Part shown: positions 3,101-29,113 of the stretch, one piece after another
Layout: each line of letters starts with the position of its first letter
Numbering within the stretch: the first letter of the stretch is position 1
Assembly (NCBI GenBank): GCA_973895155.1
Contig: OZ316896.1
Span: 16,471,752-16,535,751 of the forward strand
Origin: Marsupella aquatica
Taxonomy: Eukaryota; Plantae; Marchantiophyta
Direction: 5' to 3'
DNA length: 64,000 nt
Made by a program: the position numbers and the translations under genes
The notes under the pieces: model-generated
What the model saw: the letters and a program-made list of their open reading frames with translations, nothing else
Told to the model about the DNA's origin: nothing
Databases searched by the model: none

Positions 3101-3837
3101 AACAACTCTGTTACACATATCTTGGGCACACGGTGACATCCACATATATTGAGGAACATCACTATGAACCCTAGTTTGGAGCAATTTGCACCACCATACA
3201 ATGGGGACGTAGCTTCCTCCAAGTAGGCCCCAGTTCCCAAGAATTGACCATCATCTCCAGCTCCTTCTCCAATGTCAAACTCTTCTTGGTCCGATGGATC
3301 TACACCATGCATGTCTGGTTCTTCGTCCCCCTGTGCCTCTGCATCTTCATAAAGTGCATCCAGGTCTTGAAAAATGTCTGAAACCATCCTAGGAACATCT
3401 GCCCCGTCCTCATTAGAAGTCTCGGGACCTCCTTGTGGAACATACTCATCTTCGGCATTGTTGCTTGCATGACCAGTGACGTTATGAAAGAATGCAGAGC
3501 GTCTTGCTGTATTCACATTTTCAAAATCTGCTCTCCATTCATCATCCGATGAATCCTCTTCCTCTGGCACATTCCACACCCTGCGGATTGGATGTCTTCC
3601 ATGCCTTTGAAGATGAGAATGCACTTGGTTCAGGGTCATCGAGTGGTATCCTCGACATTGCATGCAGGGGCATCTCATCCGGGCATTTCTACCCCGGCTT
3701 GCTCTAAGCACCTCTCTATTCCACAACTTGGAGTCATGACGTGTAATCCTCAGTGGGTGATGCAAAGGGAGTCGCACTTCATTGGTATGTCTCTGATTCC
3801 TTTGCCCCAACTGTCCATCCTCATTTGCCTGATCCAT
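125..3837 (-). CDS. CACTA TnpD/TNP2-type transposase (Transposase_21, DUF4218 and DUF4216-like regions), 3 exons: 3837-2008, 1891-990, 881-125
   Basis: Motifs CPCMQC, HACPDGHVLFR, LRHFPLIPRLQRLY, RNVRFGLSLDGANPF, YNLPPW, DVMHIEKN, KTHDFHVMMQ, FPPAFFDVMTHL, RWMYPMERYM, EPFVFPSQVEQVFF. GT..AG introns 2007-1892 and 989-882 join the three ORFs in frame (YWK|DFE; WWQ|EYN) with no internal stops. Confidence 0.93.
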
Positions 3838-4245: not shown

Positions 4246-5172
4246 TTATTCATAATCATTAGGGCTAACAGAATCATACGCACTATCAGAAAACTCTTCA
4301 TCCGTGGTCTGGAACTCATAAGTAACATATTTTGGGTCGTCATAGGGAATGAATGGCTTTGCTGGCCATATTTCATATAAATCATATTTATGCTCATCTA
4401 ATCGCATATTTGTTGAAAGTGACTGCCTGACCCATTCAGGGCAGACCACACGCAGCCCATGTGTGATGAGCCATCGTACTGTGGACTTTCCATACTCTCG
4501 GCATACCTTAGAATATGAATGAGCAATGAGATGGGTGGTCTCATTAGTGAGCTTCTCAATCACTGTACCACCTCTTCTACTGATCTCCCTCTTGAAACGA
4601 CAGACCCTATATGGCTTGATAGACTTGTCAAGTATAACAGCCCTCACACCTCTGAACATGGTACGGTCTGGGATGGGTTCTGTCTCATATGGGATAATGT
4701 TGTTGTATACTTTTGTGATCTGGTCAATAGACGGAACCCTACTCCCACCTCTCCCTGCAATTCTACGAGCCTTGTGCCAATCTCGACTGTCTTTCATCAT
4801 TTGGATGCTATTGTACTTGCTCTCAAACAAATTGTAATCATCAGGATCTTGGACACTCCCTTTTCTAAGGGAGTCAGACATCCATTCTGCTGAAAGTATT
4901 TTGACATGCCTCAAGAAGACTTTGTCATAGAAAACCGACCAAGATGCCATTTTCAGACAATGTTCCCATGTTTCTGCAATAATATGGGTGACTTCAGTGT
5001 CCTGTAGTTGAGATTGTGTCTCTGTACCGTGACACTCAATGAGTTTTCTCCTAAGGATATCCAATCTTGCACTCTGAATACCTGGGACAAAAAAGACTCT
5101 GACCCCTTGGAAGATGGGAGCACACTGGGAAGTTGGAAGGGGGACAAGTTCACGCTTCCGTTTGGAAGGCAT
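4246..5172 (-). CDS. Intronless tandem-BRCT protein (two repeats resembling the plant DNA polymerase lambda N-terminal BRCT), CACTA cargo
   Basis: Repeat 1: IFQGVRVFF..RLDILRRKL..EVTHIIA..LSAEWMSDSLRKG...DPDDY. Repeat 2: MFRGVRAV..RRGGTVIEKLTNETTHLIA..VCPEWVRQSL...LDEHKY. Both match the BRCT consensus (F.G..., GG, THLI, W...S). Likely start MPSKRKR (NLS-like) at 5172; acidic tail. Confidence 0.82.
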   Translation of the reverse strand: MPSKRKRELVPLPTSQCAPIFQGVRVFFVPGIQSARLDILRRKLIECHGTETQSQLQDTEVTHIIAETWEHCLKMASWSVFYDKVFLRHVKILSAEWMSDSLRKGSVQDPDDYNLFESKYNSIQMMKDSRDWHKARRIAGRGGSRVPSIDQITKVYNNIIPYETEPIPDRTMFRGVRAVILDKSIKPYRVCRFKREISRRGGTVIEKLTNETTHLIAHSYSKVCREYGKSTVRWLITHGLRVVCPEWVRQSLSTNMRLDEHKYDLYEIWPAKPFIPYDDPKYVTYEFQTTDEEFSDSAYDSVSPNDYE

Positions 5173-6075: not shown

Positions 6076-6798
6076 TCAGCCTGTTGGTGCTGATCCACTT
6101 GTTTTGTTGCTGGCGCTGGAGGTGTCATCCAGCAATAGCCAAGTCAAGTGGTCTCTCGCAGGGGTCTGCAAATGAGGGTCAATCGTATGGAGGTGGCAAT
6201 ACAAAAACCACCTATCAACCCCGTGTGCAGAGTGGGAATAAATTTGGCGGTCACATGCATACCCTTCTGCCTGAAGGGCTAGTAAACACTCATGGTGCCA
6301 GGCTGTGGGACATCTGGGACAATGGACCATGTCTATCCAGTAGTCATCATCAGGCTCCCCACAAGCAGGACAAATATGTAGTGGGCAAAGGGAGTTATCA
6401 TAGGGCAGGCATGTCAAACAAAAAAAACGAACACAAAACCTGTCAGGACATTTCCGCAGCTCTGGTTGATCCCCCTCAACAGTGCCGTTTGTGCCACATT
6501 GAGCACACTTGCTGATATTAGTGGCACAATCAAAGCAAGTCCAAGCACCCCGATGGTCCCCCCGGAGCCCAACCCCAGGGCATGCATTTTGTGGTGCATA
6601 AGTGGACCAGGAATTGACATGGAATTGTCTCAGGCAGGGGCCATCACACATGACCAGGTCACCTCCATCGTCACAAATGGCACAGACATGAGCGGCTTTC
6701 TGATGAATTTGTGCATTGGACCAATGATGATGTCTACTCATGGAATCGTGCCTCACCTGTGATCCGCCTCTGTGTGCTGACCGTTTTGGACAAGCCAT
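6076..6798 (-). CDS. Intronless EDM2/NSD-type triple PHD-finger protein, CACTA cargo
   Basis: VCAICDDGGDLVMCDGPCLRQFH..C..WTCFDC..CAQC..C....C..FFCLTC..CPLHICPAC..CPRCPTAWHHECL..LYCHLHTIDPHLQTPARDHL. The last motif matches the EDM2 post-PHD motif (YC..HEID..L.TP.RDH) as I recall it. ATG at 6798 lies just after a splice acceptor. Confidence 0.88.
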   Translation of the reverse strand: MACPKRSAHRGGSQVRHDSMSRHHHWSNAQIHQKAAHVCAICDDGGDLVMCDGPCLRQFHVNSWSTYAPQNACPGVGLRGDHRGAWTCFDCATNISKCAQCGTNGTVEGDQPELRKCPDRFCVRFFCLTCLPYDNSLCPLHICPACGEPDDDYWIDMVHCPRCPTAWHHECLLALQAEGYACDRQIYSHSAHGVDRWFLYCHLHTIDPHLQTPARDHLTWLLLDDTSSASNKTSGSAPTG

Positions 6799-7204
6799 GA
6801 CTTCTACCTTGATAGAAAACAACACAATATATGGCCAGAGTCAGTGACGTAGTGAAGCATGCAAAGAATGAGAAACTAAAACTATGAATTAATACCAAAG
6901 ATTTGAGAAACTGTAATTTCAAGTTCTAAATTCAAGACGGGTTGTGTGCATGGAGGAAATTTTAAGTTTAGGACTCTGAGATTGTACACAGGCAATTACT
7001 GAACGATTTCTGCCATTAAAGGTGGGCAATTGTTGGGCTAGCATTTTCACACATTAATTTTTATAAATTTTTGGGGCCACGAAAATAAGGGGAACCAGTA
7101 GAAGAATTCAAAAGTCCACAGCAGGACATTGCTCAGCACAGCAAGAAGGCCAGTAGAATACAATCGACACCCCATACATAAAATCCAATCAAATAACCCA
7201 AATC

Positions 7205-8200
7205 CAGTCTACACTTCCATAGTGAAATCCTGGCTTGACCCTGGCCCCGACCTGAGATTGCTATAGTGATGGGCATGCATAAGAGAGGAAGAGATTTCTG
7301 TACATACTTGAGGATAAGCAGCACAAACGCTCGACCCTGAGACCACCAGTGAAGACAAAGCAATGACAATGTAGAGGGCTCTGAGTGATTACAGACCTCA
7401 GGAGTTGACAAAACCCTGGAATGATTTCTTTGTGCCTAGCTTGGCAAAAGAGAAAGCTCTCAAACGGGTGGAAAAATGATCTGCAAGTGCCACAGATAGA
7501 GTGTGGCTCATCAGTTCTGTGGCTCATTAGTTGTTCGTGGAGGAGTACATTATAGAGTATCACATTTGACTAATGTCCTGTACATTGAATACATACAGTG
7601 GCAAAGTAGTCAATGGAAGAGTGACCTGCTCCCTTTGCGTTCTTCCTGTTGCCGAAACATGAATGTAGAGGTAGAATTGCATGCAGGAAAATTTGAAGTT
7701 TAGGGCTATGACATCCATGCTTTGTGCAACCTCTAATCCGAAAGCCTCCAAAGACACAAGTGAAGCATGTAGGCGCACGTAATAACTTCTAATTTAGTCA
7801 TTGACAGTACAAGAGTATACTCTAAAGTCTGCGATTCTGAAAGTACAAGCATTGCAGGCGCGCAGGTCTGAAAAGTTGTTGCAAGACACAAATAAGCACT
7901 AAGCGACTAAGGACAGGACCGTTGAGTTGAAATCACAGCTCAGCAAAGGCAAAGAAAAACCCCCCGCACCCCACCTTAGTTCTGCACAACACTTCTGCAC
8001 ACTAGAATACTAGTGTATAAGATTAGAGCAATTCAAGCCGAAGCAGAATGAAAGTGCCAACAATATACTGTGATCCCATCTACATTTCCATAGTGAAATC
8101 CAAGTTCGACGCCGACCCCGACATGAGATTGCTATAGTGATGGGCATGCATAAGAGAGGGAGAGATGATGACACGTACTTGAGGATCGCGAGAGAGAGAA
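7205..8200. repeat. Dispersed direct repeat (~120 bp at ~7205-7325 and ~8078-8200) in the CACTA-1 leader
   Basis: Both copies contain tctaca(c/t)ttccatagtgaaatcc...gagattgctatagtgatgggcatgcataagagagg. A second pair lies at ~8620-8710 and ~8885-8965 (gaatgtggtca...cgcttcaagtgtgg...aaccct). Confidence 0.75.
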
Positions 8201-9137
8201 ATTTGCAACAGAGAGTGGACACAATGGAAGAGCGAGACACGATGGAAGAGCGAGACCGAGAGAGAGGGCGAGAGAGAGTGAGGTGAGAATTCAGCAAGAG
8301 AGGTCTCGAATAGGGACAACCTTCTATATATGAACCATAGTTTTTGCTGTCATTAATTTTCCAGAGTTAAGATGAACAAACAGAGTACAAACAGAGCACA
8401 ATGAAGCACCACAGTGCGTCGCACGGGACCTCTCACCTCTGCCTGAACACCAGCCGCACCCAACGCCACACCAGAGATCAGCGGTCTTGAAAACAAGTTG
8501 ACACCCTAAACCCGACACTTCCAATATCGCCCGCTCCAATGTCGCAGTGCGTTTTTGTTCTAGCTCGTTCTCCTCTTGACCGAAGAACAACCCAACAAGC
8601 AAATGGCGGAAGATGGACGCACTTAGCACCTGGGTGAATGTGGTCACGTTGCGCTTCAAGTGTGGCCCTAAACCCTTCCTCCTCCCTTCAATCACAGAGA
8701 GTCTTCGACCGCAAGAGCAAGAAGCACTTCCTCTCCTCTCATCTCCCAATGCTATGCAAGGCAAAGAGGTAAAGAATTACAAAGCTAATGGAGGAAGACG
8801 GACCCCCGCACCACAAACTTGGCGTCCGACCCTAAAATTTCCCGCAATGCCCCCGCAATGCCTTCAGGGAGCACTCGCAAACGCACCCAGCACCCGATTG
8901 AATGTGGTCAGGTCGCTTCAAGTGTGGTGTCAAACCCTTTCTCCTCCCTGAAATCACAGAGAGCCCGACTCACTGCACACTAAGAATCCCATTGTTTCTC
9001 CATAAACCTTCGTTCCCTCCTTGATTGATTGACTATCGATCGCCCCTCTCAATGAGTCGCCTCATTCGCTCCACCTCCCCTCCCCTTTGTAAACCCTCTT
9101 TGCGGACGAAGACCCTACATTTGCTCCCGCGCACAAG

Positions 9138-9263
9138 GGTGGAGAGTACTAAGGTTCTCAGCCAGTGACATGTAAGGGGCTCATGTAAGGGGGTACTGCA
9201 CAACGGTGGAGAGTACTAAGGTACTCAGCCAGTGACATGTAAGGGGCTCATGTAAGGGGGTAC
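9138..9263. repeat. Tandem duplication of a ~60-67 bp unit at the CACTA-1/LTR-element junction
   Basis: ggtggagagtactaagg(t/ta)ctcagccagtgacatgtaaggggctcatgtaagggggtac present twice. Confidence 0.8.
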
Positions 9264-9264
9264 C

Positions 9265-11983
9265 TCTACTATTTGAAGCTTTCTCACATAAAAAGCTTGA
9301 ATGTTTGGCAATTGGTGAGTAGCACTCACTCACATAAGAACCCTAAACTAAGACAATCAACTTAGATAGTGGACCTGCCATTTTCCTTATGATGGGATGT
9401 TGTAATTAAGTGGTATCCCCCATCCAACTTCAAAGGTGCATGGACAACCTTGAACCATGAACAATGTCCCTTGCACCTTGAAGAATGAGTGATTGAAAAG
9501 AGTAGGTAAAGTCAACATCGCAAAGGAGTCGCAACAAATGAGTGGAAACTTTGTGGAAGTGATACTTAAGACATATGTAGTGATAACACCCTAAACTTCC
9601 ATAACCTTGTCACAGTAGTCAATAGTGGTTTGGTAAAAAATAGGGGGTATTTCTACTAGTGCCGGTTTGCGCTAGTGGAGAGGAGAAACTGGTTGATTAT
9701 GGTTACTTTTTGTGGAGATTACTTTCTCATTGTACTAATCGTGATAGGAAGTAGGAGAGTTTTCGCAGGAGTAGCACGACTGTCAATGCATGGACAACAT
9801 ATGAGGTAGTAAAGGAATCTAAGTGAACTAGAAAGTAGAGTCCAAAGATCAGCCTTGGAGACGTCCAAGCACATGTAATTTGTGCTCACTTATAGTGGTT
9901 ACCGTGCCTCATAATAGTTATCTCAAAGTTGTTTTATGTGTGGTGGGATGATGGAGAAGTGACATTGTTTTGAGTTGGAATGGAGGGCTCATCCTCTCAC
10001 CATGCATCGGGACCAGATCTCAATGGCAGCCTCTAGAGTCTACTTGGTTCTACCTCTCCAACATCAGGTCTCCGTGGGAACCAAATGCGGTTTGGTCACT
10101 GTTCGACTTCGGATCGGCAAGAGGGACTCCCCCCATTGCAAGCCTCAAAACCAAAACCATCCAATGCACAATCAAAGAGCACCATGAGGTAGCTTTCTTC
10201 ATTAGCTTTCCAACGAGCCCAAGAACTCTCCCAATGGAGACCTAGTCGTCAAGTTATGTTTGTTTCCGCTTCAAAACTCGAAACGATGTATCTTCGTCGA
10301 TCGCGATCAGCTCGAGGTCAAACTTGAAAGGACCACTCCCCTCATATATGCTTCTGGGGACCTGCCACCCCTGGACCAGTTGTAGTATCACACTAGGGAC
10401 ATAAATAAACATTTAAGATCCAAAACTCGGTATTCGTTCCCATGGAAGAACATGTAAGGAATGATTTTCTATGATTTAGCACTTATGAATGAATAAGGTA
10501 ACAAAAACACAAAGGTTGAGCCTTTTACTATGGTTGCTCAGCAAGGCATAGTTTTAAATGTCTGCTTGACATTGTAAATAAAATTAACAAATGGAAACAA
10601 TTAATAAAACACAATGAAAATCCTGAGGTATGGTGAGGGAGTTAGGAAACAACCAAGGTGACTCCTCAACATAACTTCATTTGATATGATTTAGGTGGTA
10701 TATCCGCAAGAACATTTCTGGAAAGGATTACGGTACTAGGATGATTACTAAAATACCGTCAACATGTCTCAACTTTTCCTTCCAAGGTACTGAGTGGAGA
10801 CTAGTAATCAATCACTTCTGTATCCAATCGTTACTTTGTGTCACGAATAAGAGACACCATCATAATCAAATTTGAAGCCATAAGTAATTGGTAAGTAACA
10901 ATCTTTGCATCCCGTGCACAAGCAATGTCACGTCAAAAACTATGCATCAAGAACTAAGAAATATGTGAAACATCACCAACAAGGAATCTATTTTCACATA
11001 CTCAAAAGATTTAACAATCACAATAATTTTACTTCAAGGATCCAAACTTCTCATTCATTTAGACTTGAAGGGGGAAGAATTCCTTTGTATTAAGTACTCA
11101 TATGCAATGGAGTACTTGCTACAAATGGAGGTAACAAAGTTGCAATCTTGCAACTGAGCGCTCATGAAATTTCTTCACACAAAAAGTGGCAAAAACTCTA
11201 CTACATATAGGCTAGCAAAAACTAAAGGGGAAAAGATATAATGAAAGGATATGCCCTTTCATATCTTAAGGGTCATAGACTAAAGTAAAAAGTAACAAAA
11301 TTGTACTATAGGAGTACCTAAGGTTCAGCGTATTGCTCTTGGAATCAAAAACTAATCAAAAGTTATCCCTAGTGTAAACTGGAGTAAAAGTGTTTTTGCA
11401 CTTTTGTGATATAACTAATAAATAGTGAGTTTATTAGAATTTTAATTTCTAACATAAAAGTCAAAATGGGGTGAAACTTTCATAGGTGTAAGATTTATAT
11501 ACATGTTACATTCTGGCAAAATTTTAGACTTTTCTGAGGTGTCTAAGTGTCTTAATAAAATCGGTGAAAAGTGTTGTCGTATATAAAATACATTTTTCCG
11601 GAAATTTTTCTAAGTGTTGGAGGCGCCGTTACGCCTTTGCGCAATTACGTTTAAGTAAAACTAAAAATACTATAACTTCTAAACTACAAGTAGATTTTGG
11701 CTGATATTTTCAGGGTATGGTCTGCTACATAAGGGCTATCTCCTGGAAAAGTATGAGATTTTTCTAACTACTTTAACTATTTAACTAAAATTGCAGAGAT
11801 CGACTGATCTTAACTATTGTCGTAGGAGAACTAATCTTATTGGAGTAGTGTTGTCTGGTCCGGTTGCTGAACTCTTGTATAGGTATTCTCTTGCATAGCT
11901 TCTTGAATTTCATCCATGTCTTGAGTGTGATGCCGATGAAAGGTAAAGACTTCCACTGTCGTTCAAGATCCAGAACAGGAAGT
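9265..11983 (-). mobile_element. Truncated LTR retrotransposon: partial 5' LTR (10381-11983), putative PBS, decayed internal region
   Basis: 10381-11983 is the reverse complement of the solo LTR at 14961-14987 plus 33108-34715. On the minus strand the LTR end ...GATACTACA is followed by ac-TGGTCCAGGGG (PBS-like TGG). Internal region not assignable. Confidence 0.65.
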
Positions 11984-11994
11984 TTAGGGTTTAG

Positions 11995-12477
11995 GGCCAT
12001 AACTTTTGACTCTTAGGTCCGTTGGCCAAAAAATATGCGGCCCCATGATCAGGCTCATGTGGGGCTTCTTGGGCCCCTATGGTGATCCATCGGAAAAATA
12101 GTTCATTTTTCCGTGATCGGCAACGGACCCAAACTATAAGTATGCGGCTTAAGTCGGCCATAACTTTTGGCCCCTAGGTCCGTTGGCCAAGAAATATGCG
12201 GCCCCATGATTGAGCTCATGTGGGGCTTCTCGGGCCCCTATGGTGATCCGTTGGAAAAATAGTTCATTTTTCCGTGATCGGCAACAGGCCCAAACTACAA
12301 GTATGCGGCTTGAGTCGGCCATAATTTTTGGCCCTTGGATCCGTTGGCCAAGAAATATGCGGCCTCATGATTGGGCTCATGTGGGGCTTCTTGGGCCCCT
12401 ATGGTGATCTGTTGGAAAAATAGTTCATTTTTCCGTGATCGGCAACGGGCCCAAACTATAAGCATGCAACTTGAGTT
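11995..12477. repeat. Tandem repeat, 3 x 161 bp
   Basis: Units start ggccataa at 11995, 12156 and 12317; a degenerate fourth start lies at 12478. Confidence 0.92.
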
Positions 12478-12483
12478 GGTCAT

Positions 12484-14819
12484 TGCTTCAATCCATACAA
12501 TCCATACAAGGACTTGAGCAATCTGCAAACTAAGTTCTTTTGGCCCTTCTTCATAAAGCCTAGTGGTTGTCTCATGAAGATCAACTCTTCCAAGTTGCCA
12601 TAGAGAAAAGTAGTAATAACGTCCATCTGATCCATTACCAGACCAAAAAACACAACAAGTTAATACAAGATCCGAATTGTGGAATACTTAGCCACCGGTG
12701 AAAAGACCTCATTCTAATCCACTCCTTTCTCCTGAGTGAATCCCTTGGCAACAAGCCTTGCCTTGTAGATCTTGTCTCCACCCTCTGAAGAACTGTCCTT
12801 CAACTTATAAATCCACTTGCTGTCCACTACTTGCTGACCTCTTGGAAGCTCCACCAGCTCCCATGTCTTGTTGTCACTCAAAGATTACAACTCCCTCTGC
12901 ATTGCTGCATTCCACTCATGCTTTTGCTCTGAAGCACAAGCCTCACTATATCGAAGAAGGCTCTCCTTCTTCCAAGATCAAAGCCATGTCATCTTCATCA
13001 GGTGCAATGTCAATATCATCTAGCTTAGATGAGTTTGTCCATTGACCATATCTGGTAGGAGCTCTAGTAGAACGACTAGAACTTCTTCTAGTAGATGACT
13101 CAGGCTGATCTATTGCTGCTGCTGGCTGAATTTGAGGTACCCCAACAACAATCTTCTCCTCTTGTTCCATCACAGGAACCAGCTCCAAGCCTGGAGCTTC
13201 TCCATCTCTCCTGTCATGAACAGCATCATGACTAATCTCCCCCTCAACCCGGTTCGGGATGGGAGATTTCCCCTTGTCAGTATGGGAGTCTTGAGAACTC
13301 TCCCCCTCCTTTGATGATCTGGATTCATTAAAGAACACATCTCTACTGACAATTAGCTTATAGGTTACTGGATCCCATAACCTATAACCCTTCACACCTT
13401 TCTGATAGCCAAGGAAAATGTACTTCTTTGACTTGGACTCCAGCTTGGATCAAAGCTGGGAAGGTGTAAGTACATAAGCATCACATCCAAAAATCCTCAG
13501 ATGTGAGTAATCTGCTGGACGCCCGTACCTCATTTCAAATGGCGTCTTGAATCCCATAGAATTGGATGGAGAAAAATTTACCAAATAAGTTGCAGTGTTG
13601 ACAGCTTCAGCCCAAAACTCATATGGTAAGCATGATTGACTCAACATACTCCTCGGGCGGTCCAATAGTGTTCGGTTGAGTCTCTTAGAAACACCATTCT
13701 GTTGAGGAGTATAACTTGTTGTGAGATGGCGGGTAATCCCCTGCTCCTTACAATACGTTCCAAATTCACCAGAATTGTATTCACCACCGTTATATCTCAC
13801 CTTATTACCAGTCTGATTCTCAACTTGGGCTTTCCACTCCTTAAAAGTGGCAAAAACATCAGACTTATTGTGTAGAAAGTATATCCACACATACCTTGAG
13901 TAATCGTCAATGAACGTGACATAGTATAACCGTCCAGAATGTGAGGGAGTAGGGGCTGGACCCCACACATCACTATGTACATACTCAAGTACCTCCTTGC
14001 TGGTGTGAGCTCCAACTCCGAAGGGTTTCCTATGCTGCTTCCCAAACACACAGTGCTCACAAAATTCCAACTTACAAGACTGCAAATTAGAAAGTAATCT
14101 TTTTTTCTGAAGAATAGCCAAACTTTTTTCACTCATATGACCCAAACGGAAGTGCCACAGTCGGACCGTCTCCTCATGAGATAAGGTTACATTGGCTTCA
14201 TCACAGACTACACTGCCCTGCAAAACGTATAGATTGCTATGTCTCTTTCTCTTCAATACAACTTTAGTACCAGTTGAAATCTCAAGGACACCATTAGCAA
14301 AACTCCACTGATGGCCATTTGCTTCTAAAACTTCAAGTGAATGAGATTTTTCATCATGCTGGGAATATGTCTCACATTCCTCAACGTTCTCACAGCATCA
14401 TCAAACATCTGAAATCTTACAGATCCAAGTCCAACAACCTGACATGGGATTCCATTTCCCATCAACACTGACCTGTTGGAAATCGTGTAAGAAATGAAAA
14501 AATCTCTCCTAGAACAAATGTGAAAAGTACATGCACTATCTAGAATCCAGTCATCACTACCTAGATTTGACACTACGTTGAGAGTATAATCTTGGCATCA
14601 TAATATGTCATCATCATCGAGTAAATCTACCTCATGCGAGCTCGATGCCGCATTAGCAGATGCAGTAGGGACGTTTACTCGACAATCCCTTTTCATGTGG
14701 CCTGGCTTGCCACAATTCCAACATGCAAGAGGCTTCCTCTCTTACAATTTCCCTCTGGATTTAGATCTCCCCCGTGATGTAGATCTAAACCTGTTCTGCC
14801 CATTCGTGCGCTGCGCTGC
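12484..14819 (-). pseudogene. Ty1/copia gag C-terminus, protease, integrase and start of RT (disrupted, 3'-truncated)
   Basis: Zinc knuckle CWNCGKPGHMKRDC; protease WILDSACTFH; GAG-pre-integrase LWHFRLGH; integrase VHSDVWGP, TPQQNGV, FWAEAVNTA; KGYRLWD; RT start YKARLVAKGFTQ. Stops and frameshifts present; no RNase H or 3' LTR. Confidence 0.93.
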
Positions 14820-15649
14820 TGTAATACAGTACATTAGTTAGAAATGATAGAAAAATTATAAATTTTGAACTTTTTCTAAGTCAATGGTGCAGTATAGTTA
14901 CTTTTGTAACAATTTAGATTAACTGAACACTTTACCTAATGTCATGCTACACCGGAGACTACTTCCTATTCTGAATATTGAACGACATGCCACTAGTAGA
15001 AAATGGGGTCTTTTATGACTATGATACATATGATTGTTGTGCCCAAATGACAATATATTTTAATGACAGAACATGAATGACACATAAATGACTATCTATA
15101 ATGACAGGGTGAAAAAATGACTAATAATTGCAATAGGGTCATTTAAACCAATGAGCCAAATGACCGTGACTACTATAATGACAACACCAATGAGTTGTAG
15201 TCATTTTGGACAATCTTTGTCAATGACACAAATGACAATAACCTTGTCATATCAATGTTTGACATTTGGGAAGTCATTTAGGACGACGGTGACTAATGAC
15301 TACTAAAACAAATTTGGAAATATCACTATTTAAAAATTTTAGTAGTCATTTAAACCTAAAGTGATAAATGACATGATAAACAATATATGACTATTTTGAG
15401 GTCTAGGGTTTTAGTATATGATTTAACTTTGTAGGGTATTATATATTAGCTATCCAACACGCATGGTACTATAAAGACTAGGGGCACACACAAATTAGAT
15501 TTTAAATATATTTTGAGACTTAATAGATAACATTATCTGGTGTAGGTTTAGGGTTTAGGTGCTAGATGTCTGTATTTGCTATTGTCATTTTTCCAATTAT
15601 GCGGACTGTTATTTGCAAAGAATTATAAGTCATTTATGCTTTCACTCAA

Positions 15650-18600
15650 TTTTCTAGTCATTTGACAAGTGCCACTAAATGACATGAAAATAAGTCATTT
15701 GAGATATCAATGTTGTGGTCATGTATGTCATGCACAATATGACTCCTAAGGGCCTTCGGTGTCTGATTGGCCATAATGGTGATAGGGGCCAACCATTAGG
15801 GATGCTACCCACTCCACATGGTACCGGATATAGAAGGCATAAACTCTGGGCCACTAGTTATCAGGATTTGGCCTCGTTATAGTTTTTATGACCCAACAAC
15901 TTTTCACTTTGAAAGGGCATCACCCAACTTTCGGCAAAACACTCGCAAGTTGTATGACTTTGGAGTCATTTACCCAAACAATTGCAAACCACACTCATTT
16001 TGTCATTTGTAAAGGATTTTGGGTCATTTGTGCGTGTGAATGAATATTTTTGTCATTTATGCAGTCTTTTGCACCTTTAAAACACACATTTTGCACCTTA
16101 GAAGAGCATCACCCAACTTTGGGCAAAACACTCCCAAGTTGTATGACTTTGGAGTCATTTGCTTGAAGGGATGCAAACCACTATTGCTTGGTCATTTGGA
16201 ACAGAATTAGAGTCATTTGTGCACGTGACTAAGGGTTTTTGTCATTTTGGGAGTGCCGAGAGACGTCATTTGTGCAAATGACATATAAATCAATCATTCA
16301 TGATGTCAATATTGCAGTCATGCATGCCATGGGTAATATGACTTGTTTGGGCCGTCGGAGACTAATTGACAATATTTGTGATTTTAGCCGGCCATTAGGG
16401 ATGCTATCCACTCCACATGGTGCAGGATAGGGTACTCTCAAACCTTGCGTCACTAGTTATGCCACTTTGCCTCCTAAAGGTTTTTTGTAGCCAACTTTTT
16501 GCACCTTAGAAGGGAGTCACCCAACTTTGGGCAAAACACTCCCAAGTTGTATGACTTTGGAGTCATTTGCTTGAAGGGGTGCAAACCACTCACATTTGGT
16601 CATTTGGAAAGGATTTAGAGTCATTTGTGCGCATGACTAAGGGTTTTTGTCATTTTGGGAGTGCTGAGAAACGTTATTTGTATCAATCTATTCATTAAAA
16701 GTGAATTATTATTCAATTTATGAACATTTGGGCACTAGAAAGTGTACATTTGGCCTTCAAAAAGTGTACAATTGGGCAAGAAATAAAGTTGATGGCCATC
16801 AAATGTACCACCATGTTCATCCTTTGTAAATGAACTAGGATGAGACTCCTTATAGTCAAGATCATTTTTGCCCCCTCAGGTTTACAATTGATCATTTGGG
16901 TGTAGAGTATTGCATCACAGTGTACCTTTTGGGTTTAAAAAGTGTACATTTAGAGACCCAAAAGTGAACATTTAGAGGCCTAAAAGTGAACAAAATAATA
17001 TACACTTTTAATGAATAGGGTGATTTGTGCAAATGACACATAAATCAGTCATTTATGATGTCAATATTGCAGTCATGCATGCCATGGGTAATATGACTTG
17101 TTTGGGCCGTCGGGGACTGATTGGCAATATTTGTGATTGTAGCCAGCCATTAGGGATGCTATCCACTCCACATGGTGCGGGATAGGGTACTCTCAAACCT
17201 TGCGCCACTAGTTATGCCACTTTGCCTCCTAAAGGTTTTTTGTAGCCAACTTTTTGCACCTTGGAAAGGAGTCACCCAACTTTGGGCAAAACACTCCCAA
17301 GTTGTATGACTTTGGAGTCATTTGCTTGAAGGGGTGCAAACCACTCACATTTGGTCATTTGGAAAGGATTTAGAGTTATTTGTGCACGTGACTAAGGGTT
17401 TTTGTCATTTTGGGAGTGCTGAGAGACGTCATTCGTGCAAATGACACAAAACTCAGTCATTCATGATGTCAATGTTGCAGTCATGCATGCCATGGGTAAT
17501 ATGACTTGTTTGGGCCGTCGGGGGCTGATTAGCAATATTTGTGATTGTAGCCGACCATTAGGGATGCTATCCACTCCACATGGTGCTGGATAGGGTACTC
17601 TCAAACCTTGCGCCACTAGTTATGCCACTTTGTCTCCTAAAGGTTTTTTGTAGCCAACTTTTTGCACCTTGGAAGGGAGTCACCCAACTTTGGGCAAAAC
17701 ACTCCCAAGTTGTATGACTTTGGAGTCATTTGCTTGAAGGGGTGCAAACCACTCACATTTGGTCATTTGGAAAGGATTTAGAGTCATTTGTGCACATGAC
17801 TAAGGGTTTTTGTCATTTTGGGAGTGCTGAGAGACGTCATTTGTGCAAATGACACATAAATCAATCATTCATGATGTCAATGTTGTAGTCATGCATGCCA
17901 TGGGTAATATGACTTGTTTGGGCCGTCGGGGGCTGATTGGCAATATTTGTGATTGTAGCCGGCCATTAGGGATGCTTTTCACTCCACATGGTGCGGGATA
18001 GGGTACTCTCAAACCTTGCGCCACTAGTTATGCCACTTTGCCTCCTAAAGGTTTTTTGTAGTCAACTTTTTGCACCTTGGAAGGGAGTCACCCAACTTTG
18101 GGCAAAACACTCCCAAGTTGTATGACTTTGGAGTCATTTGCTTGAAGGGGTGCAAACCACTCACATTTGGTCATTTGGAAAGGATTTAGAGTCATTTGTG
18201 CATGTGACTAAGGGTTTTTGTCATTTTGGGAGTGCCGAGAGACGTCATTCGTGCAAATGACACAAAACTCAATCATTCATGATGTCAATGTTGCAGTCAT
18301 GCATGCCATGGGACTTGTTTGGGCCGTCGGGGGCTGATTGACAATATTTGTGATTGTAGCCGGCCATTAGGGATGCTATCCACTCCACATGGTGCGGGAT
18401 AGGGTACTCTCAAACCTTGCGCCACTAGTTATGCCACTTTGCCTCCTAAAGGTTTTTTGTAGCCAACTTTTTGCACCTTGGAAGGGAGTCACCCAACTTT
18501 GGGCAAAACACTCCCAAGTCGTATGACTTTGGAGTCATTTGCTTGAAGGGGTGCAAACCACTCACATTTGGTCATTTGGAAAGGATTTAGAGTCATTTGT

Positions 18601-19620
18601 GCACATGACTAAGGGTTTTTGTCATTTTGGGAGTGCCGAGAGACGTCATTTGTGCAAATGACACATAAATCAGTCATTCATGATGTCAATGTTGCAGTCA
18701 TGCATGCCATGGATAATATGACTTGTTTGGGCCGTCGGGGGCTGATTGGCAATATTTGTGATCGTAGCCGGCCATTAGGGATGCTATCCACTCCACATGG
18801 TGCGGGATAGGGTACTCTCAAACCTTGCGCCACTAGTTATGCCACTTTGCCTCCTAAAGGTTTTTTGTAGCCAACTTTTTGCACCTTGGAAGGGAGTCAC
18901 CCAACTTTGGGCAAAACACTCCCAAGTTGTATGACTTTGGAGTCATTTGCTTGAAGGGGTGCAAACCACTCACATTTGGTCATTTGGAAAGGATTTAGAG
19001 TCATTTGTGCACATGACTAAGGGTTTTTGTCATTTTGGGAGTGCTGAGAGACGTCATTTGTGCAAATGACACATAAATCAGTCATTCATGATGTCAATGT
19101 TGCAATCATGCATGCCATGGATAATATGACTTGTTTGGGCCGTCGGGGGCTGATTGGCAATATTTGTGATCGTAGCCGGCCATTAGGGATGCTATCCACT
19201 CCACATGGTGCGGGATAGGGTACTCTTCAACCCTCGACCACTAGTTATGCCACTTTGTCTCCTAAAGGTTTTTTGTAGCCAACTTTTTGCACCAAGGAAG
19301 GGCACGGCCCAACTTTGGGCAAAACACTCCCATGTTGTATGACTTAGGAGTCATTTACCTAAAGTGGTCCATATCACTCCCATTTGGTCATACCCAAGGG
19401 ATTCTGAGTCATTTTGCGAGTGAGTGCACTTTTTGGTGATTTGTGGAGTCCTCTAATACGTCATTTATGCGTTTGACATGAAAATGAGTCATTGTTGATG
19501 TCAATGCGGCAGTCACGCATGCCATGGACAATATGACTCTTTGGGGGCTTGGATGTGGGATTGGTCAGATTGGTGATAGGAGCCCACCATTAAGGATGCT
19601 ACCCACAAAGAATGTATTGC
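15650..19620. repeat. Tandem array of a 408-bp unit (~8-9 copies, degenerate at both edges) in the CACTA-2 5' region
   Basis: Anchor cacccaactttgggcaaaacactccc at 16110, 16518, 17273, 17681, 18089, 18490, 18898 and ~19306. Spacing is 408 except 755 (MITE insertion) and 401 (7-bp deletion). Confidence 0.95.
16684..17022. mobile_element. 339-bp hAT-like MITE inserted in one array unit
   Basis: TIRs CAATCTATTCATTAAAAGTG / reverse complement CACCCTATTCATTAAAAAGTG. 8-bp TSD ATTTGTAT/ATTTGTGC (array consensus ATTTGTGC). 339+8 equals the 347-bp excess spacing. Internal aaagtgtacattt repeats. Confidence 0.85.
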
Positions 19621-20169
19621 ATTTGGCTATTATGGAGTGCCATGAGTTTAGGTTTTGGGCAATGACTTCAAAACAAGTCATTTATGTTGTCAACCCTAGG
19701 ACTGAGGACTATGAGATTAGTGATTTAATATGTGAGTGACTAATTTTATGAGAATGTTCACCAAATGACTTCTTCACTTAGGTAATTGTGACGTGTCAAT
19801 GAGGATGTACATCCTAAACCTATGCATATGTGCGTAATTTGTTTTGTGTTACATACATATACTATTTAGGAATTTTGGCACCTAGGTTTCCACATCAATG
19901 GGTTTCAAAGGCCACTAGTATATTAAGTTTTTGAGTCACTGGTTATTGTAAATGGTAATACATACTTGTGACAAGTATTTGTGTCATCAAAAAAGCATTT
20001 GGCCCCAAACTTCCTCCATCTCCTAAAATTGATTGGCGAGGGGATAATAATGTTAGAGGGGTATTATGAAACCTGGAGATTGACTCCATTACTACCCTCA
20101 ACATCCCAGTAAAATTCCCGTTGGTGTCCCAAAGCCTTATTTGCCAACCATGTGTCATCCTGTCATGCC

Positions 20170-20570
20170 CCGGCCCTATCTTCCTTGGATCCCACAAAAT
20201 AATGTCTGGCCACATTGGATCCCATTTTCCCATAAGAAATTCAGACATTGGATCCCATTTTCCCACAAGTTCACGTTGGGAGTTTAGCTATTCTCGTGAA
20301 GTTGAGCAGCGAGTGGAGGTTTAGGGTGAATTGAGCGGTGAGTTGAAGTGCGAGGTTTTTGCGATGAGGTGCAAGGTTGCTGCTGAAGATCGGGGCTGAG
20401 CAGTGAGTTGAAGTGCGAGGTCGCTGCTGCGCGCAAGCTCGGTGCTGAGCAGTGAGTTGAGGTGCAAGGGCACTGCTGTGAGGTCACTGCTACGAGGTCT
20501 CTATGAGTTTGTTGCTATGAGGTCGCTGTTGTGAGGTCGCTATGAGGTCGTTGTTGCATTTTAGGGCAAA
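20170..20570. repeat. Short degenerate repeats in the putative CACTA-2 promoter/leader
   Basis: attggatcccattttccca x2-3, then gcagtgagttgaagtgcgagg-like x4 and tgaggtcgct-like x6. Confidence 0.65.
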
Positions 20571-22802
20571 GGAGTTGAGGTCCACTGCGCCTATGTTTCT
20601 TGAAGGTCGTGCATGATGCTCCCCATCTTTTCAGTGTGGATGGAGTGTGGCCCGATCTCTTGCGCTTAGTCTCTGCATTCCATCCGCAAGCCATTCATGA
20701 GGTGGGATTGATCGGTGAGGACGGTGGGATTGATTCAAAGTTGTGCACTGTGAATAGGGAGGCATTTGCGTTTGGGACTAGCTTTGGCTGCGGGTTGTCA
20801 TTAGGGAAAAACCAGGTGAAAGGGACCGAGCTCAAGCTACGCGCACTTGGGCAATGCTAACCGTCCTGCATGTTGGAGCTGCAACGTGAACGAGAGTTTT
20901 GCTCTGCGCCTTTGGCTAGAGCTACGGAGGGAGTTGCTGCAACACCACTGCCGCTACCTGGTACCATTTCATCCACGTCGAATACAACGCGTCTCTGAGG
21001 TATCTTGGATAGTTGTGCATTCTCTGTCCACCTGCTGTGCTTCTTCCCCCTGACGGCCATGCTTTGATTTCATGCTTCCTGTCCCCTTTGCCATGCTGCA
21101 AATTTAGCGCTTTTGCTTCCCCTTTGCTGGATGCTGCCCCTTACAATCGTAAATTGAAGTTCTCCCTTTCCAATGCGCCTAGTATTAGTCCCAACCTCAT
21201 TTGCCATTCAGTTATGTACATCGAGCTTGTGTAAGTGTGTCCCTATTTCCGACCCCTGCCTAAATGTTCTACCTCGAGTACCTTGCTATCTGGTATTTTG
21301 TTGTCTCTCATTTCTGAGTCCTTGTTTGCTGGAATTTGCTCTTTAATCATGAAAAACAAAGATACCAGCATTTTGTACCAGACCTGAGCTGTTGGAATGT
21401 TATTGATCTCTGTACAGGGTTGGGATTGTTGCTTTGTTGGCTTGGGATTCACAGTCCCTGTATAATGTTCACTGATTTATTTCTGTCATTGTCTGGCCAT
21501 GGTCCAAGTTTTGTCTTTTGGTATACTGCGCTTACTATGCAATGTCGTGCAGTATACTCGTTTCCTGCGAATTGAACATTGAGCCAATTGGAGGTGGACA
21601 TTGGAGTTGCAACAACCTACAAGGTTAGTTGTGCTAATCTTGAATCCGTTGTAGTCAGTGCCCCCCTCCCTCACAAAAAGTTGCGGTCCTTTCTATCCCG
21701 GGTCTCTTTTGAATTGAAGACCAAGCTCTGTTTGACAACATCTAATTTCCTATGTAGCGGTAGGTCTCTGTTGCTTTTTTGATGGATTGCTTGCTCAAGC
21801 TTAGGGAGAGAATTGAAATATTTGCCTTCTATCCTACTCCTTCACCTGCGAGCATTGACTTTTTTTAATGTTTTTTCAAAGTAGCCACTAAATACTGTGT
21901 GACTGCTAAGGTTTGCTCGCTATGAGGAGATCCATGATAGTTTTGACTCTTCCCAAATCTTACCTGTGTTGGAACCACATTGGACCTACATATCTGCAGA
22001 GACTAGTTGCTGCCGAGGTGTGATTGGAGCTGCATTCCTGCCTGCATTTCCGCTTGCATCAATTTTGAGGATTCTAAGGAAGATTGGACCTCTGTTTGGT
22101 AGTGGTGCTACCTAACAAGGGTCCAGTGGAGGTGGGCTTGCTCCAGTTTTGCTTGCATTATTGTCGTGTGTCTACTGTCGTTATTGGTTTGTTGTTGAGA
22201 TTATCTGAGAAACCCCCATTGTCTTTAGAAGAGATGTTGGGAGTGATTTGTAGGATGTGTTTGAATTGCAAAATTTTTTGGATTAATTTTTGCTATTCAA
22301 AATTACCTTGTCTGTCTGGTGATCCCATCAAATATAATATGTCTTTGTTGATCCATCACTGAAAAAATCCCGGCTCTACATGGAGTTAAATGAACCAAAG
22401 TAAGAGTTGTTGCTGAGGTTCTACCTGAGCCACTGCATTGAGCCATGTTTGCTCTTCTACTCAATCTCTCGTATTTTGTTTATTTCTCAACACCTCTAAT
22501 AGAAATCGAGTACATAGGAATTTAGAGGCAGCATTGGTAATTCCTTGATTGATCACTACATTTACCAAGTATGCTTAACTTGTTGCTCTCTGCGCAGAAC
22601 ACATAAACCAGAACCAAGTTATTTTTGACATTGCTTCTACTCCGTGAGACTGAGTTGGGCAGGACATCTTCTGACGTGTACTTAAACCTCAGATTACGGT
22701 AAGTACACTATGCATACCATCTTTGTACTTGTTTGTTGCCTTTCTCCATAGACTTCTTGTAATATTTAAGGTAATTGTGTAGATCCACACATCACATCAG
22801 GC

Positions 22803-23501
22803 ATGGCACGGGCTGCTGCTGCCTGGCTGGATCCAAAGTTTGCCCATAAAGAGCACCTTCGCATGGATCCCCCTTGTTGTTTTGAATGTGATGAGGGAGG
22901 TACTGTTTTGTTCTGCGATGGGCCTTGCAGTCGTCATTTCCATTACTTAGTTGCTGGGCAGGATCCCGAGGAGCCTGATGGCCATGGGTCTGAGTGCACA
23001 TGCATTGCCATTTCTAGAGGGCATGATTGGGCCAAGGAGTGGCTCTGTGAACTCTGCCAGCAGAACCGAGGTCGTTGCTTTGCTTGTGGACTACTTGGCC
23101 GAACCCTAAAGCCCACTACAGATGAGCCCCTTGTGGTTCAATGTGCACAAGATGATTGCTTTTCTTTCTATCACGTGGGTTGTCTGCGGACCATACTGAG
23201 GGCAAGGAAGTTGCCTCTCTTGGGGTATGCAGAGAACTTAGATGCACATCCCGCTGCTCTGATATGCCCAAGGCATTATTGTGATGTTTGCAAGGAGTAT
23301 CGGGATGGCATCTGGGAATTTATCCAGTGTCGTAGGTGCCCTCGTGCATGGTGCAGGGATGAGGGACCAGAGGCAGACAAACACCTCAAGAGAGGGGTGA
23401 AGGGTAGAGAAACGTGGGATATTGGACCATGGCGTATGGTGTACTGCAATCGCCATGTCATTCTAGAGGGTTCTGAGGTGCCACCACATGATTTCAAATA
23501 G
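22803..23501 (+). CDS. Intronless EDM2/NSD-type triple PHD-finger protein, CACTA cargo
   Basis: CFECDEGGTVLFCDGPCSRHFH..C..WLCELC...RCFACG..QCAQDDCFSFYHVGC..ICPRHYCDVC..QCRRCPRAW..MVYCNRH. Open 232-aa frame; acceptor AG just upstream; non-coding exon with GTAAGT donor at 22699. Confidence 0.88.
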   Translation: MARAAAAWLDPKFAHKEHLRMDPPCCFECDEGGTVLFCDGPCSRHFHYLVAGQDPEEPDGHGSECTCIAISRGHDWAKEWLCELCQQNRGRCFACGLLGRTLKPTTDEPLVVQCAQDDCFSFYHVGCLRTILRARKLPLLGYAENLDAHPAALICPRHYCDVCKEYRDGIWEFIQCRRCPRAWCRDEGPEADKHLKRGVKGRETWDIGPWRMVYCNRHVILEGSEVPPHDFK

Positions 23502-23559
23502 ATCATAATTAAGCCTTCAGTTGTGTAGAAAACACTACATAGTACAAAGTATACTGAAC

Positions 23560-23830: not shown

Positions 23831-23911
23831 AGTTGAATGCTAAATTGTTGCATGAAATTCATTGAAGTGTTTGGGTTGGATAAGCTATTGCTTCTTGTAT
23901 TTGTTACAGTG

Positions 23912-28300: not shown

Positions 28301-29113
28301 ACCAAGCACAGAGCAGATTTCTGGAAAGAATGGATGAAGAATCCAGGAAATCGGAGGAATCCTATGCCTTATCCCTTTGATTTGGATGAGTTGCCTCCTT
28401 TTAGAGAATGGTTTGAAGTGACAATTAGAAGGCATAATTTTAAGAATGAGTTTGAACGAATGGTGTTGGCAGCGTATAGTGTACCACCTAGTCTGAAGGC
28501 ACTGCGGTACAGAGCCTACAGAGCCTATGGGCACCATTGGAGGACCATTCCATCACTAGGTTCCTTGATTGATTGTGACTCATCTGGGTTCAAGACTTTT
28601 GATTCTGGGATGGCTTGTACATTCACTGAGAAGCGGGTCATTAGGTCAGGGGCAACAGTAGATGAATCTATACAATATGTGGGGGTGTTGACAGACATCT
28701 TAGTGTTGAACTATGGGCCTCTAATAAAGGAAGTGGTCATTTTCAAAGGAAGGTGGGCAAACCCATCTTGGACTCCCAAAGCCACTGCAAGTATGAGATA
28801 TGATGCGTCTAGATTGTGGCAAGTAAATTTTCAGAAGGAGCTGGGTGCTTCCAAGAAAATGGACTATGTATTGCCACGACAAATAGAACAAGTGTTTTTT
28901 TACCCAAATGATAAGGGGATTGCATGGAGGACAATCCTCCACAAGGAATCCAGGTCTACAAGGGTGTTGGGTGATTACATGGAAGTTGATTTCCATGATA
29001 CTATGGATGACAATGCTAAGTTTCACATAGAGTTGGCAGAAGCCTGTACAACTAGACAGGAGCCTGGACCAAGTACTACAGACAAAGGAAAAAGAAAGTA
29101 TAAAAGGAAATGA
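25320..29113 (+). pseudogene. CACTA TnpD/TNP2-type transposase, disrupted; exons 25320-27139, 27252-28156, 28273-29113
   Basis: Collinear with the copy-1 transposase (RNVRMGLALDGVNPF, YNIPPW, DPMHCEKN, FPPSFFDVMTHL, RWMYPIERY). Both introns at the same positions as in copy 1. Several TAG/TGA stops and a frameshift near 26200. Confidence 0.93.

What the first reader, a model, noticed from the sequence alone, without database searches (positions are those of the whole stretch)
6076..23501. Two divergent CACTA families each carry a stand-alone, intronless EDM2-type PHD reader gene: candidate transposon-encoded anti-silencing or chromatin-targeting system
Seen: ORFs 6076-6798 (-) and 22803-23501 (+) encode only the triple-PHD cassette plus the following YC..H motif. 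Each is the first cargo gene upstream of TnpD, co-oriented with it, and the second lies inside intact TIRs. The two proteins are very divergent yet keep most zinc ligands, and the PHD ORF of CACTA-2 is still open although its transposase has several stops. Established: Arabidopsis EDM2 PHD fingers read H3K9me2-marked chromatin and, with ASI1/IBM2 and AIPP1/EDM3, promote full-length transcripts through heterochromatic introns. VANC proteins of VANDAL Mutators are the precedent for TE-encoded anti-silencers. Inference: an old, selectively retained cargo that may let the element be transcribed and processed while silenced, compete with host EDM2, or steer insertion into heterochromatin (both copies lie in a TE nest). 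I do not know of this being described for CACTA.
Basis: partly seen in the sequence, partly recalled or inferred. Interest (0 to 1): 0.92.

Follow-up and report, generated by a model that had tools for sequence, protein, structure and literature searches.

The report
Liverwort transposons carrying chromatin-reader genes
Two distantly related cut-and-paste transposons, in what is likely a liverwort, each carry a compact gene for a triple zinc-finger (PHD) protein that is conserved among many relatives, was likely taken from a host chromatin regulator, and would likely help the transposon's own proteins engage chromatin.

Summary
Both ORFs are real, intronless EDM2/NSD-type PHD cassettes inside two CACTA elements whose transposases are 32–42% identical. 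Each belongs to a family of stand-alone 220–280-aa proteins: 39–59% and 57–68% identity, with cysteine columns 95% conserved. They are therefore selected genes, not one-off captures. Contigs from three species labels cover the transposase, a second cargo gene (tandem BRCT) and PHD1 of CACTA-1; no contig bridges them.

- BRCT, not PHD1, adjoins TnpD in CACTA-1.
- PHD2 staying open is unremarkable (P≈0.25–0.3).
- CACTA-2's target duplication is imperfect.

The source is likely a liverwort methyltransferase-less EDM2 paralogue; the trees are suggestive only. The EDM2 analogy is weaker than proposed. The RFD and ELP domains are missing. The acidic patch that H3K4me0 readers place before the first cysteine is absent in 19 of 19 family-1 proteins.

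Best reading: a family-specific chromatin adaptor for the element's own proteins (about 0.4). Decoy anti-silencing and EDM2-like RNA processing are rivals. Expression, histone binding and the genomic context of the distant homologues are untested. My literature searches found no description of this.

The parts
9649..9661 (-). 5' terminus of CACTA-1. Its first 13 nt equal those of the CACTA-2 left end. The 3' end lies outside the window.
   Evidence: In one search, X3 record 22 starts matching at 9668 after 197 unmatched letters, which fits a boundary here.
6076..6798 (-). PHD1: stand-alone, intronless EDM2/NSD-type PHD cassette, 240 aa (family 1)
   Evidence: AlphaFold2 mean pLDDT 87.5.
4246..5172 (-). 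Second cargo gene of CACTA-1: intronless tandem-BRCT ORF, 308 aa, between PHD1 and TnpD1
   Evidence: Pfam BRCT_2 4e-14 with two stretches. The two repeats align with each other. Rad4/TopBP1 BRCT E 1e-05.
125..3837 (-). TnpD1 transposase. It splices to about 1162 aa without a stop (introns 2007-1892 and 989-882; other acceptors give 1159 or 1179 aa).
   Evidence: Transposase_21 8e-61, DUF4218, DUF4216, weak Transpos_assoc. Splicing.
14991..15004 (+). Left TIR of CACTA-2, followed by ATGAC/GTCAT subterminal repeats
15666..19700 (+). Array of about 408-bp tandem units inside CACTA-2, upstream of PHD2
22803..23501 (+). PHD2: stand-alone, intronless EDM2/NSD-type PHD cassette, 232 aa (family 2)
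   Evidence: AlphaFold2 mean pLDDT 85.7.
25320..29113 (+). TnpD2 transposase, broken: 6 in-frame stops and one frameshift
   Evidence: Transposase_21 4e-67, DUF4218. Lesions.
29400..32204 (+). Degenerate, apparently spliced 3' gene of CACTA-2 with stops. TnpA-like by position and recalled resemblance only.
   Evidence: Sequence. No meaningful Pfam hit for 3 of 3 pieces scanned.
33094..33107 (-). Right TIR of CACTA-2, preceded by ATGAC subterminal repeats
59168..64000 (+). Context, not part of the elements: host EDM2-family gene with introns, closest to Marchantia Mp2g00350; runs off the window
   Evidence: tblastn of P0019: 43% over 122 aa at the N-terminal domain and 66-71% over two PHD exons

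Best explanation
Both ORFs are conserved, intronless PHD-cassette genes inside CACTA elements, likely captured long ago from a liverwort EDM2 paralogue, and they likely work as family-specific adaptors that would link the element's own proteins (TnpD or TnpA) to chromatin. SHOWN: the ORFs, their place in the elements, the fold class and family-wide conservation. INFERRED, step by step: (1) a methyltransferase-less EDM2 paralogue of liverworts was cut to its C-terminal cassette and lost its introns; (2) the gene was kept because it benefits the element that carries it; (3) a PHD cassette has no evident sequence specificity, so that benefit is most easily confined to the family if the protein partners the family's DNA-binding transposition proteins; (4) it then helps them bind, activate or insert in nucleosomal DNA. 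The ligand is likely not the plain unmodified H3K4 tail, at least for finger 1 of family 1. Odds: about 0.8 that these are selected transposon accessory genes, and about 0.4 for this mechanism.
For: FAMILIES. 5 and 3 close stand-alone homologues, more by profile. In all, 19 family-1 and 6 family-2 proteins were used, which is 15 and 4 clusters at 90% identity. SELECTION. Cys columns are 0.95 identical against 0.45 and 0.61 for other columns (12 and 4 sequences). Neutral simulation to the same divergence left an open frame in 0 of 500 and 10 of 500 runs and kept on average 54% and 64% of Cys. FAMILY-SPECIFIC REMODELLING. Family 1 has a conserved deletion of about 20 aa, a His-to-Cys ligand swap (C127) and its own invariant residues. 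CO-OCCURRENCE. 4 of 4 runs laid (3 studies, 3 species labels) have depth in 30 of 30 bins of 1-11900. X6 holds pieces of TnpD1, BRCT and PHD1, all about 4-6% diverged. In X1, near-identical contigs over these genes have depth 165-247, against 15-22 for two diverged contigs; this hints at many copies but is no copy number. ORIGIN. F/W at -13 plus E/Q at -9 before the first Cys occurs in 18 of 19 family-1, 5 of 5 family-2 and 3 of 9 paralogue-class proteins, and in 0 of 119 other hits. Both models put a short helix there. Trees group both families with the paralogue class: 85/78, 93/85, family 2 alone 100/99. The host gene has three introns in the part of the cassette inside the window, and the cargo genes have none. 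PRECEDENT. RAG2's PHD reads H3K4me3 in the RAG recombinase (PMC3241642, passages).
Against: There is no evidence here of any partner, ligand or transcript. No contig bridges PHD1 to TnpD1, and X1/X2 may be the window's own source. The DNA context of all distant homologues is unknown, so their being CACTA-borne is assumed. Copy depth for CACTA-2 is untested. Homologues were found as called ORFs by likeness to a Cys-rich query, which inflates ligand conservation. The origin is not settled: family 1 alone joins the paralogue class at only 81/80, both stems are long, and AU tests do not reject grouping with the Mp2g00350 class (p 0.11-0.21). A third CACTA remnant in the window shows no PHD trace, so the gene is not universal. 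Some PHD fingers bind no histone at all (PMC9640981, title and abstract start only).
Confidence: 0.42

Rival explanations
1. Decoy anti-silencer. The free cassette occupies the marks or partners of host EDM2-family or other silencing readers and loosens repression of the element in trans.
For: It is a truncated reader without effector domains, the usual build of a dominant negative (inference). EDM2 affects H3K9me2 or transcripts at more than 2,000 TEs and represses Mu1 (PMC7529245 and PMC3632883, passages). The ORFs are CpG-depleted (o/e 0.32 and 0.37), so the elements have been methylated.
Against: A mimic should stay close to the host protein, yet both families have long stems and have lost or reduced the acidic patch. 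A general decoy would benefit unrelated elements too (inference).
Confidence: 0.23
2. EDM2-like RNA-processing aid. The protein reads H3K9me on the element and brings ASI1/AIPP1 homologues, so that full-length transposase mRNA is made while the element is silenced.
For: Homology to the EDM2 cassette. EDM2, IBM2/ASI1 and AIPP1 suppress cryptic polyadenylation in heterochromatic TEs (PMC10241880, passages). H3K9 methylation persists on TnpA-activated Spm elements (preprint, passages).
Against: The RFD and ELP domains are absent. The nearest host class is likely not the canonical EDM2. Finger-1 determinants are altered. Which EDM2 region binds AIPP1 could not be read in the papers held.
Confidence: 0.12
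3. Host-serving or merely hitch-hiking gene. The families are host PHD-only genes, or were kept for host benefit, and the two CACTA copies picked them up incidentally.
For: PHD-only EDM2-like proteins are annotated as host genes in Marchantia (P0023, 280 aa) and in Miscanthus and Zea. The context of the homologues is unknown. A host EDM2-family gene lies in the same window.
Against: It needs two separate elements with the same layout. None of the family-1 or family-2 members looked up carries a genome annotation or species name. Several look truncated or frameshifted, as decaying TE copies would (P0007, P0010, P0020, P0135, P0136). Contig depth over PHD1 is like that over TnpD1 (hint only). 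Self-blastn listed no DNA match between the cargo ORFs and the host gene.
Confidence: 0.18

Closest known systems
Arabidopsis EDM2 and EDM2-like (ELP) proteins; liverwort paralogues Mp1g03210, Mp4g03050 and Mp2g00350
   Same: Same PHD cassette through the YC..H motif, 27-33% identity. Zinc ligands largely kept.
   Different: Stand-alone and intronless, inside transposons. No RFD or ELP domain. Acidic patch before finger 1 lost (family 1) or reduced (family 2). Family-specific ligand swaps and a deletion.
Spm/CACTA TnpA, a sequence-specific anti-silencer (bioRxiv 10.64898/2026.08.24.746577, passages)
   Same: CACTA-encoded accessory gene separate from TnpD.
   Different: TnpA is a transposase-derived HTH DNA binder that works through host demethylases. 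These genes derive from a host chromatin reader and lie 5' of TnpD. The preprint's main text has 0 mentions of PHD in its survey of 962 Spm proteins.
VANC of VANDAL Mutators and its Ulp1-carrying KIU form (PMC13317346, passages; PMC5735166, abstract start)
   Same: Transposon accessory gene. KIU shows long-term retention of a captured host domain.
   Different: Different superfamily. VANC recognises DNA motifs; no DNA-binding domain was detected here.
NSD1/2/3 PHD cassettes
   Same: Best sequence hit in PDB is NSD2 (E 9e-08). Best structural hits are NSD PHD5-C5HCH (Z 5.5-5.8, rmsd 2.7-4.7, 83-87 aligned; similar for PHD2).
   Different: No SET or PWWP domain. Z under 8 shows fold class only, not the ligand.
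RAG2 PHD with RAG1
   Same: Analogy only: a PHD reader that works with a transposase-related recombinase (H3K4me3 reading from PMC3241642, passages; the transposon origin of RAG is recalled).
   Different: Unrelated PHD type and superfamily. Partnership with TnpD is untested here.

Membership tests
CACTA/EnSpm | CACTA-starting terminal inverted repeats | tested here: met
   CACTA-2: 14991 and 33107, 13 of 14 alike. CACTA-1: only the end at 9661 is in the window.
CACTA/EnSpm | Transposase_21 (TnpD) gene | tested here: met
   E 8e-61 and 4e-67
CACTA/EnSpm | 3-bp target-site duplication | tested here: inconclusive
   CACTA-2: TGC vs ATA, but the flanks are colinear with an empty LTR copy with 6 extra bases. 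CACTA-1: second end is outside the window.
CACTA/EnSpm | Subterminal repeats | tested here: met
   CACTA-2: 33 and 40 per kb vs 4.3. CACTA-1 has 0 of that motif, and only longer direct repeats near its end.
CACTA/EnSpm | TnpA-like second gene | tested here: inconclusive
   Degenerate 3' gene in CACTA-2, no meaningful Pfam hit in 3 of 3 pieces
EDM2/ELP proteins | Repeated atypical (NSD-type) PHD cassette | tested here: met
EDM2/ELP proteins | Methyltransferase-like ELP domain | tested here: not met
   The proteins end within 19 aa of the cassette. Domain list from PMC7529245, passages.
EDM2/ELP proteins | N-terminal RFD-like domain | tested here: not met
   Present in host P0025, P0035 and P0096. 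Only 38 and 25 residues precede the first finger here.
EDM2/ELP proteins | Binding of H3K9me2-marked chromatin; complex with ASI1/AIPP1 | not testable with these tools
   Needs peptide arrays and co-IP
H3K4me0-reading PHD fingers (AIRE/BHC80 type) | [quoted passage not shown] | tested here: not met
   No D/E in the 6 residues before the first Cys in 19 of 19 family-1 proteins, against 2 of 119 other hits. One Asp in 5 of 5 family-2 proteins. Finger 1 only.
VANC/TnpA-type anti-silencers | Separate transposon-encoded accessory gene | tested here: met
VANC/TnpA-type anti-silencers | Sequence-specific DNA binding and hypomethylation of cognate copies | not testable with these tools
   No DNA-binding family in Pfam. 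Needs transgenics and methylomes.
Pack-CACTA neutral gene fragments | Recent host fragment decaying neutrally in a non-autonomous element | tested here: not met
   Full cassette, strong ligand conservation, no DNA match to the host gene in the window, transposase present and intact in CACTA-1

The most novel reading that the evidence does not exclude
Liverwort CACTA elements run a third accessory system besides TnpD and TnpA. It is a host-derived triple-PHD chromatin reader, captured once and diversified family by family, and in one lineage joined by a tandem-BRCT module. It steers the transpososome to chosen chromatin or wakes silenced copies: a plant DNA-transposon counterpart of RAG2 and of chromodomain integrases.
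Probability: 0.35. Interest if true: 0.88.

Novelty: new variant of a known kind. Interest (0 to 1): 0.72.

Why it matters
The plant transposon counter-silencers in the papers read here (VANC, TnpA) are sequence-specific DNA binders. A conserved histone-reader-type gene taken from the host's own TE-regulating family would be a different strategy. It makes two old questions testable in a transformable lineage: how DNA transposons choose chromatin for insertion, and how they stay active under silencing. CACTA-1 has an intact transposase plus PHD and BRCT cargo, so it is a ready candidate element. The work also points to a liverwort EDM2 paralogue class (Mp1g03210-like), for which my one search on EDM2, Marchantia and PHD listed no relevant paper.

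Tried and rejected
1. Expression: no RNA holder listed; no conclusion drawn.
2. No whole genome is held for this window, so copies could not be counted.
3. The metagenome scan gave 12 loci from 270 stretches. None is a family-1 or family-2 member or shows a transposase: they are plant EDM2/ELP-like sequences (L001-L007, L009, L010) and generic PHD genes (L008, L011, L012). The viral scan gave 0 of 13.
4. Fusion to a transposase: 0 of the 49 hits scanned, out of the 150 listed, carry a transposase family. The other 101 were not scanned.
5. 'PHD2 is open while TnpD2 decays' was rejected as evidence.
6. Recent local capture from the neighbouring host gene was rejected as recent: no DNA match, and 39% over 38 aa for PHD1. 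An old origin from that class is not excluded.
7. One origin for both families: they formed a clade in one quick tree (88) but not. Not shown and not rejected.
8. ESM Atlas for the BRCT ORF: best score 0.87, a lead only. No Atlas result was obtained for PHD1.
9. PHD-transposase binding, CACTA-2 read depth and a wide structural search remain untested.
10. DNA-level dN/dS was not possible because no homologue DNA was available.
11. Earlier findings: none by sequence or place.
12. Rows left out. One search dropped 14 of 161 proteins with short matches. The trees used 69, 39, 30, 24, 27 and 34 hand-chosen rows. One search scored 119 of 131 other hits, after removing P0018, P0126, P0135 and P0146, and 5 of 6 family-2 proteins.


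Full report
OBSERVATION. Both ORFs are at the stated coordinates: 240 aa on the minus strand and 232 aa on the plus strand. They are 27% identical over 214 columns. Pfam finds only NSD-type PHD families, and each aligns to the PHD cassette of a full-length EDM2 at E about 1e-17. AlphaFold2 models are confident (mean pLDDT 87.5 and 85.7). Their best structural matches are NSD PHD5-C5HCH and PZP domains, with a best Z of 5.8. That gives the fold class, not the ligand.

ANATOMY OF CACTA-1. It reads on the minus strand: terminus at 9661, PHD1 (6798-6076), a 308-aa tandem-BRCT ORF (5172-4246), then TnpD1. TnpD1 splices to about 1162 aa with two introns and no stop. The 3' end is outside the window.

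ANATOMY OF CACTA-2. It runs 14991-33107, with termini 13 of 14 alike and dense subterminal repeats. Inside are a 408-bp array, PHD2, TnpD2 with 6 stops and a frameshift, and a degenerate 3' gene with no meaningful Pfam hit. It sits in an LTR whose empty copy lies near 11.96 kb. The flanks are colinear with that copy but the 3-bp duplication is imperfect. The two transposases are 32-42% identical by segment. PHD2 being open is expected by chance at P 0.25-0.31.

ORGANISM AND NEIGHBOUR. A gene with introns at about 59-64 kb matches Marchantia Mp2g00350 and a Riccia protein in both its N-terminal domain and its PHD exons. The window is therefore likely from a liverwort (inference). This host gene has three introns in the part of the cassette inside the window, and the cargo genes have none. 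That a host EDM2-family gene lies within 60 kb of both cargo genes is unexplained. Self-blastn lists no DNA match to it.

FAMILIES AND SELECTION. PHD1 found 5 stand-alone homologues among 71 candidates and PHD2 found 3 among 95. A profile search of 1.84 billion representatives and a second word search (16 hits among 881 candidates) extended these sets. Family 1 is 39-59% identical to PHD1 and family 2 is 57-68% identical to PHD2. Cys columns are 0.95 identical in both, against 0.45 and 0.61 for other columns. Simulated neutral divergence kept the frame open in 0 of 500 and 10 of 500 runs. Ascertainment favours open, Cys-rich hits, but the contrast is large. The members looked up come from Logan, JGI, ENA or unnamed NCBI records on contigs of about 1-13 kb, with no species names. 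Several look truncated or frameshifted. Their DNA context could not be read, and this is the main gap.

CO-OCCURRENCE WITH THE ELEMENT. Six runs from 4 studies and 3 species labels hold the 1-9700 stretch or part of it, and 4 were laid. All 4 have depth in 30 of 30 bins. In X1, contigs with 1-4 differences over TnpD1, BRCT, PHD1 and the 5' region have depth 165-247, while two diverged contigs have 15 and 22. X6, another species label and study, holds pieces of all three genes at about 4-6% divergence. The tool warns that depth is no copy number, no listed contig bridges PHD1 to TnpD1, and X1/X2 may be the window's source. So this is a hint that PHD1 is a regular part of a multi-copy family, not proof. 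In 19 of the 22 differences listed for 1-9661, the window has T or A where contigs read C or G. CpG o/e is 0.25-0.40 in the element ORFs. Both fit a methylated copy drifting from its family. The same test for CACTA-2 remains open.

ORIGIN. Each family is a clade at 100/100. Together they group with a liverwort class of methyltransferase-less EDM2 paralogues: Mp1g03210, Mp4g03050, and Calypogeia, Riccia and M. paleacea proteins. Support is 88, 85/78 and 93/85. Family 2 alone nests in that class at 100/99 and family 1 alone is its sister at 81/80 (model without mixture, long stems). AU tests do not reject grouping with the Mp2g00350 class (p 0.11-0.21). A motif upstream of the first Cys points the same way as the trees. 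F/W at -13 with E/Q at -9 occurs in 18 of 19 family-1, 5 of 5 family-2 and 3 of 9 paralogue-class proteins (two of the three are one cluster), and in 0 of 119 other hits. A shared source is likely; a single capture is possible but not shown.

WHAT THE CASSETTE CAN DO. H3K4me0-reading PHD fingers use an acidic cluster before the first Cys (PMC3241642, passages). Host EDM2-family proteins have it: a mean of 1.8 D/E in the last 6 residues and 5.5 in the last 13. Family 1 has none in the last 6 in 19 of 19 proteins, and family 2 keeps one Asp. The DDGG and hydrophobic-C-D motifs shared with AIRE PHD1 are kept. Histone binding is therefore plausible, but EDM2-like reading cannot be assumed. EDM2's other domains (PMC7529245, passages; RFD) are absent.

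MECHANISM. I commit to a family-specific adaptor between the element's own proteins and chromatin (0.42). The reasoning is inference: a reader with no sequence specificity is most easily kept by selection on the element if it works through the element's DNA-binding proteins, and the conserved family-specific remodelling fits a private interface. Rivals are a decoy anti-silencer (0.23), a host-serving or hitch-hiking gene (0.18) and an EDM2-like RNA-processing aid (0.12).

COMPARISON AND NOVELTY. CACTA already has an anti-silencer, TnpA, and H3K9 methylation persists on elements it activates (bioRxiv 10.64898/2026.08.24.746577, passages; 0 mentions of PHD in its main text). VANC and Ulp1-carrying KIU are the precedent for retained cargo (PMC13317346, passages; 0 mentions of PHD). 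The Arabidopsis atlas of TE products has 0 mentions of PHD or BRCT in its main text (PMC13547354, term search).

Seven searches listed nothing that, by title and abstract start, describes such a gene: CACTA+PHD+EDM2, CACTA+PHD finger+transposase, EDM2+Marchantia+PHD, anti-silencing terms, EnSpm+PHD+BRCT (0 papers), transposon+PHD finger+liverwort+accessory protein and EDM2-like+transposon+captured (0 papers).

Other papers seen: PMC13621724, PMC11982613, PMC10241880 and PMC3632883 as passages only; PMC5735166, PMC10398659 and PMC9640981 as listings only. The primary papers on EDM2 peptide binding and the AIPP1 complex were not held and are known to me only by recall. I read no supplements. Those of the preprint and the atlas, RepBase and subscription journals could hold a prior mention.

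VERDICT. These are real, selected and probably long-resident CACTA accessory genes of an apparently undescribed kind, with function untested. New variant of a known kind; interest 0.72.

Noticed in passing
window 59168-64000 (+): Host EDM2-family gene with introns, closest to Marchantia Mp2g00350, within 60 kb of both cargo PHD genes. The proximity is unexplained; trees favour another paralogue class as donor.
   Followed up: partly
window 4246-5172 (-): Intact intronless tandem-BRCT ORF as a second cargo gene of CACTA-1, possibly a link to DNA repair at excision or insertion (inference). Homologues were not searched by sequence.
   Followed up: partly
window 38872-42463 (-): Third, decayed CACTA transposase remnant. 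No PHD trace near it by profile search.
   Followed up: partly
window 10374-11960 and 33107-34722: Two inverted 90%-identical copies of a 1.6-kb LTR-like repeat. One splits a copia element (gag 34700-35563, protease/integrase about 12946-14820) and is itself split by CACTA-2.
   Followed up: partly
window 15666-19700: Array of about 408-bp units, mostly over 90% alike, inside CACTA-2 and rich in the element's ATGAC/GTCAT motif; possibly amplified binding sites.
   Followed up: no
window 52890-54614 (+): Decayed non-LTR reverse transcriptase (weak RVT_1).
   Followed up: no
L002-L007, L009; proteins P0023, P0184-P0186: Short PHD-only EDM2-like sequences also occur in other plants (named ones from Marchantia, Miscanthus, Zea). 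L009 breaks just before the CDG motif, where the window's host gene has an intron. Whether any are TE-borne is unknown.
   Followed up: no
proteins P0126, P0164, P0146: Further divergent cassettes near the paralogue class and family 2. P0164 shares the F-x3-E motif and may be a third lineage.
   Followed up: partly
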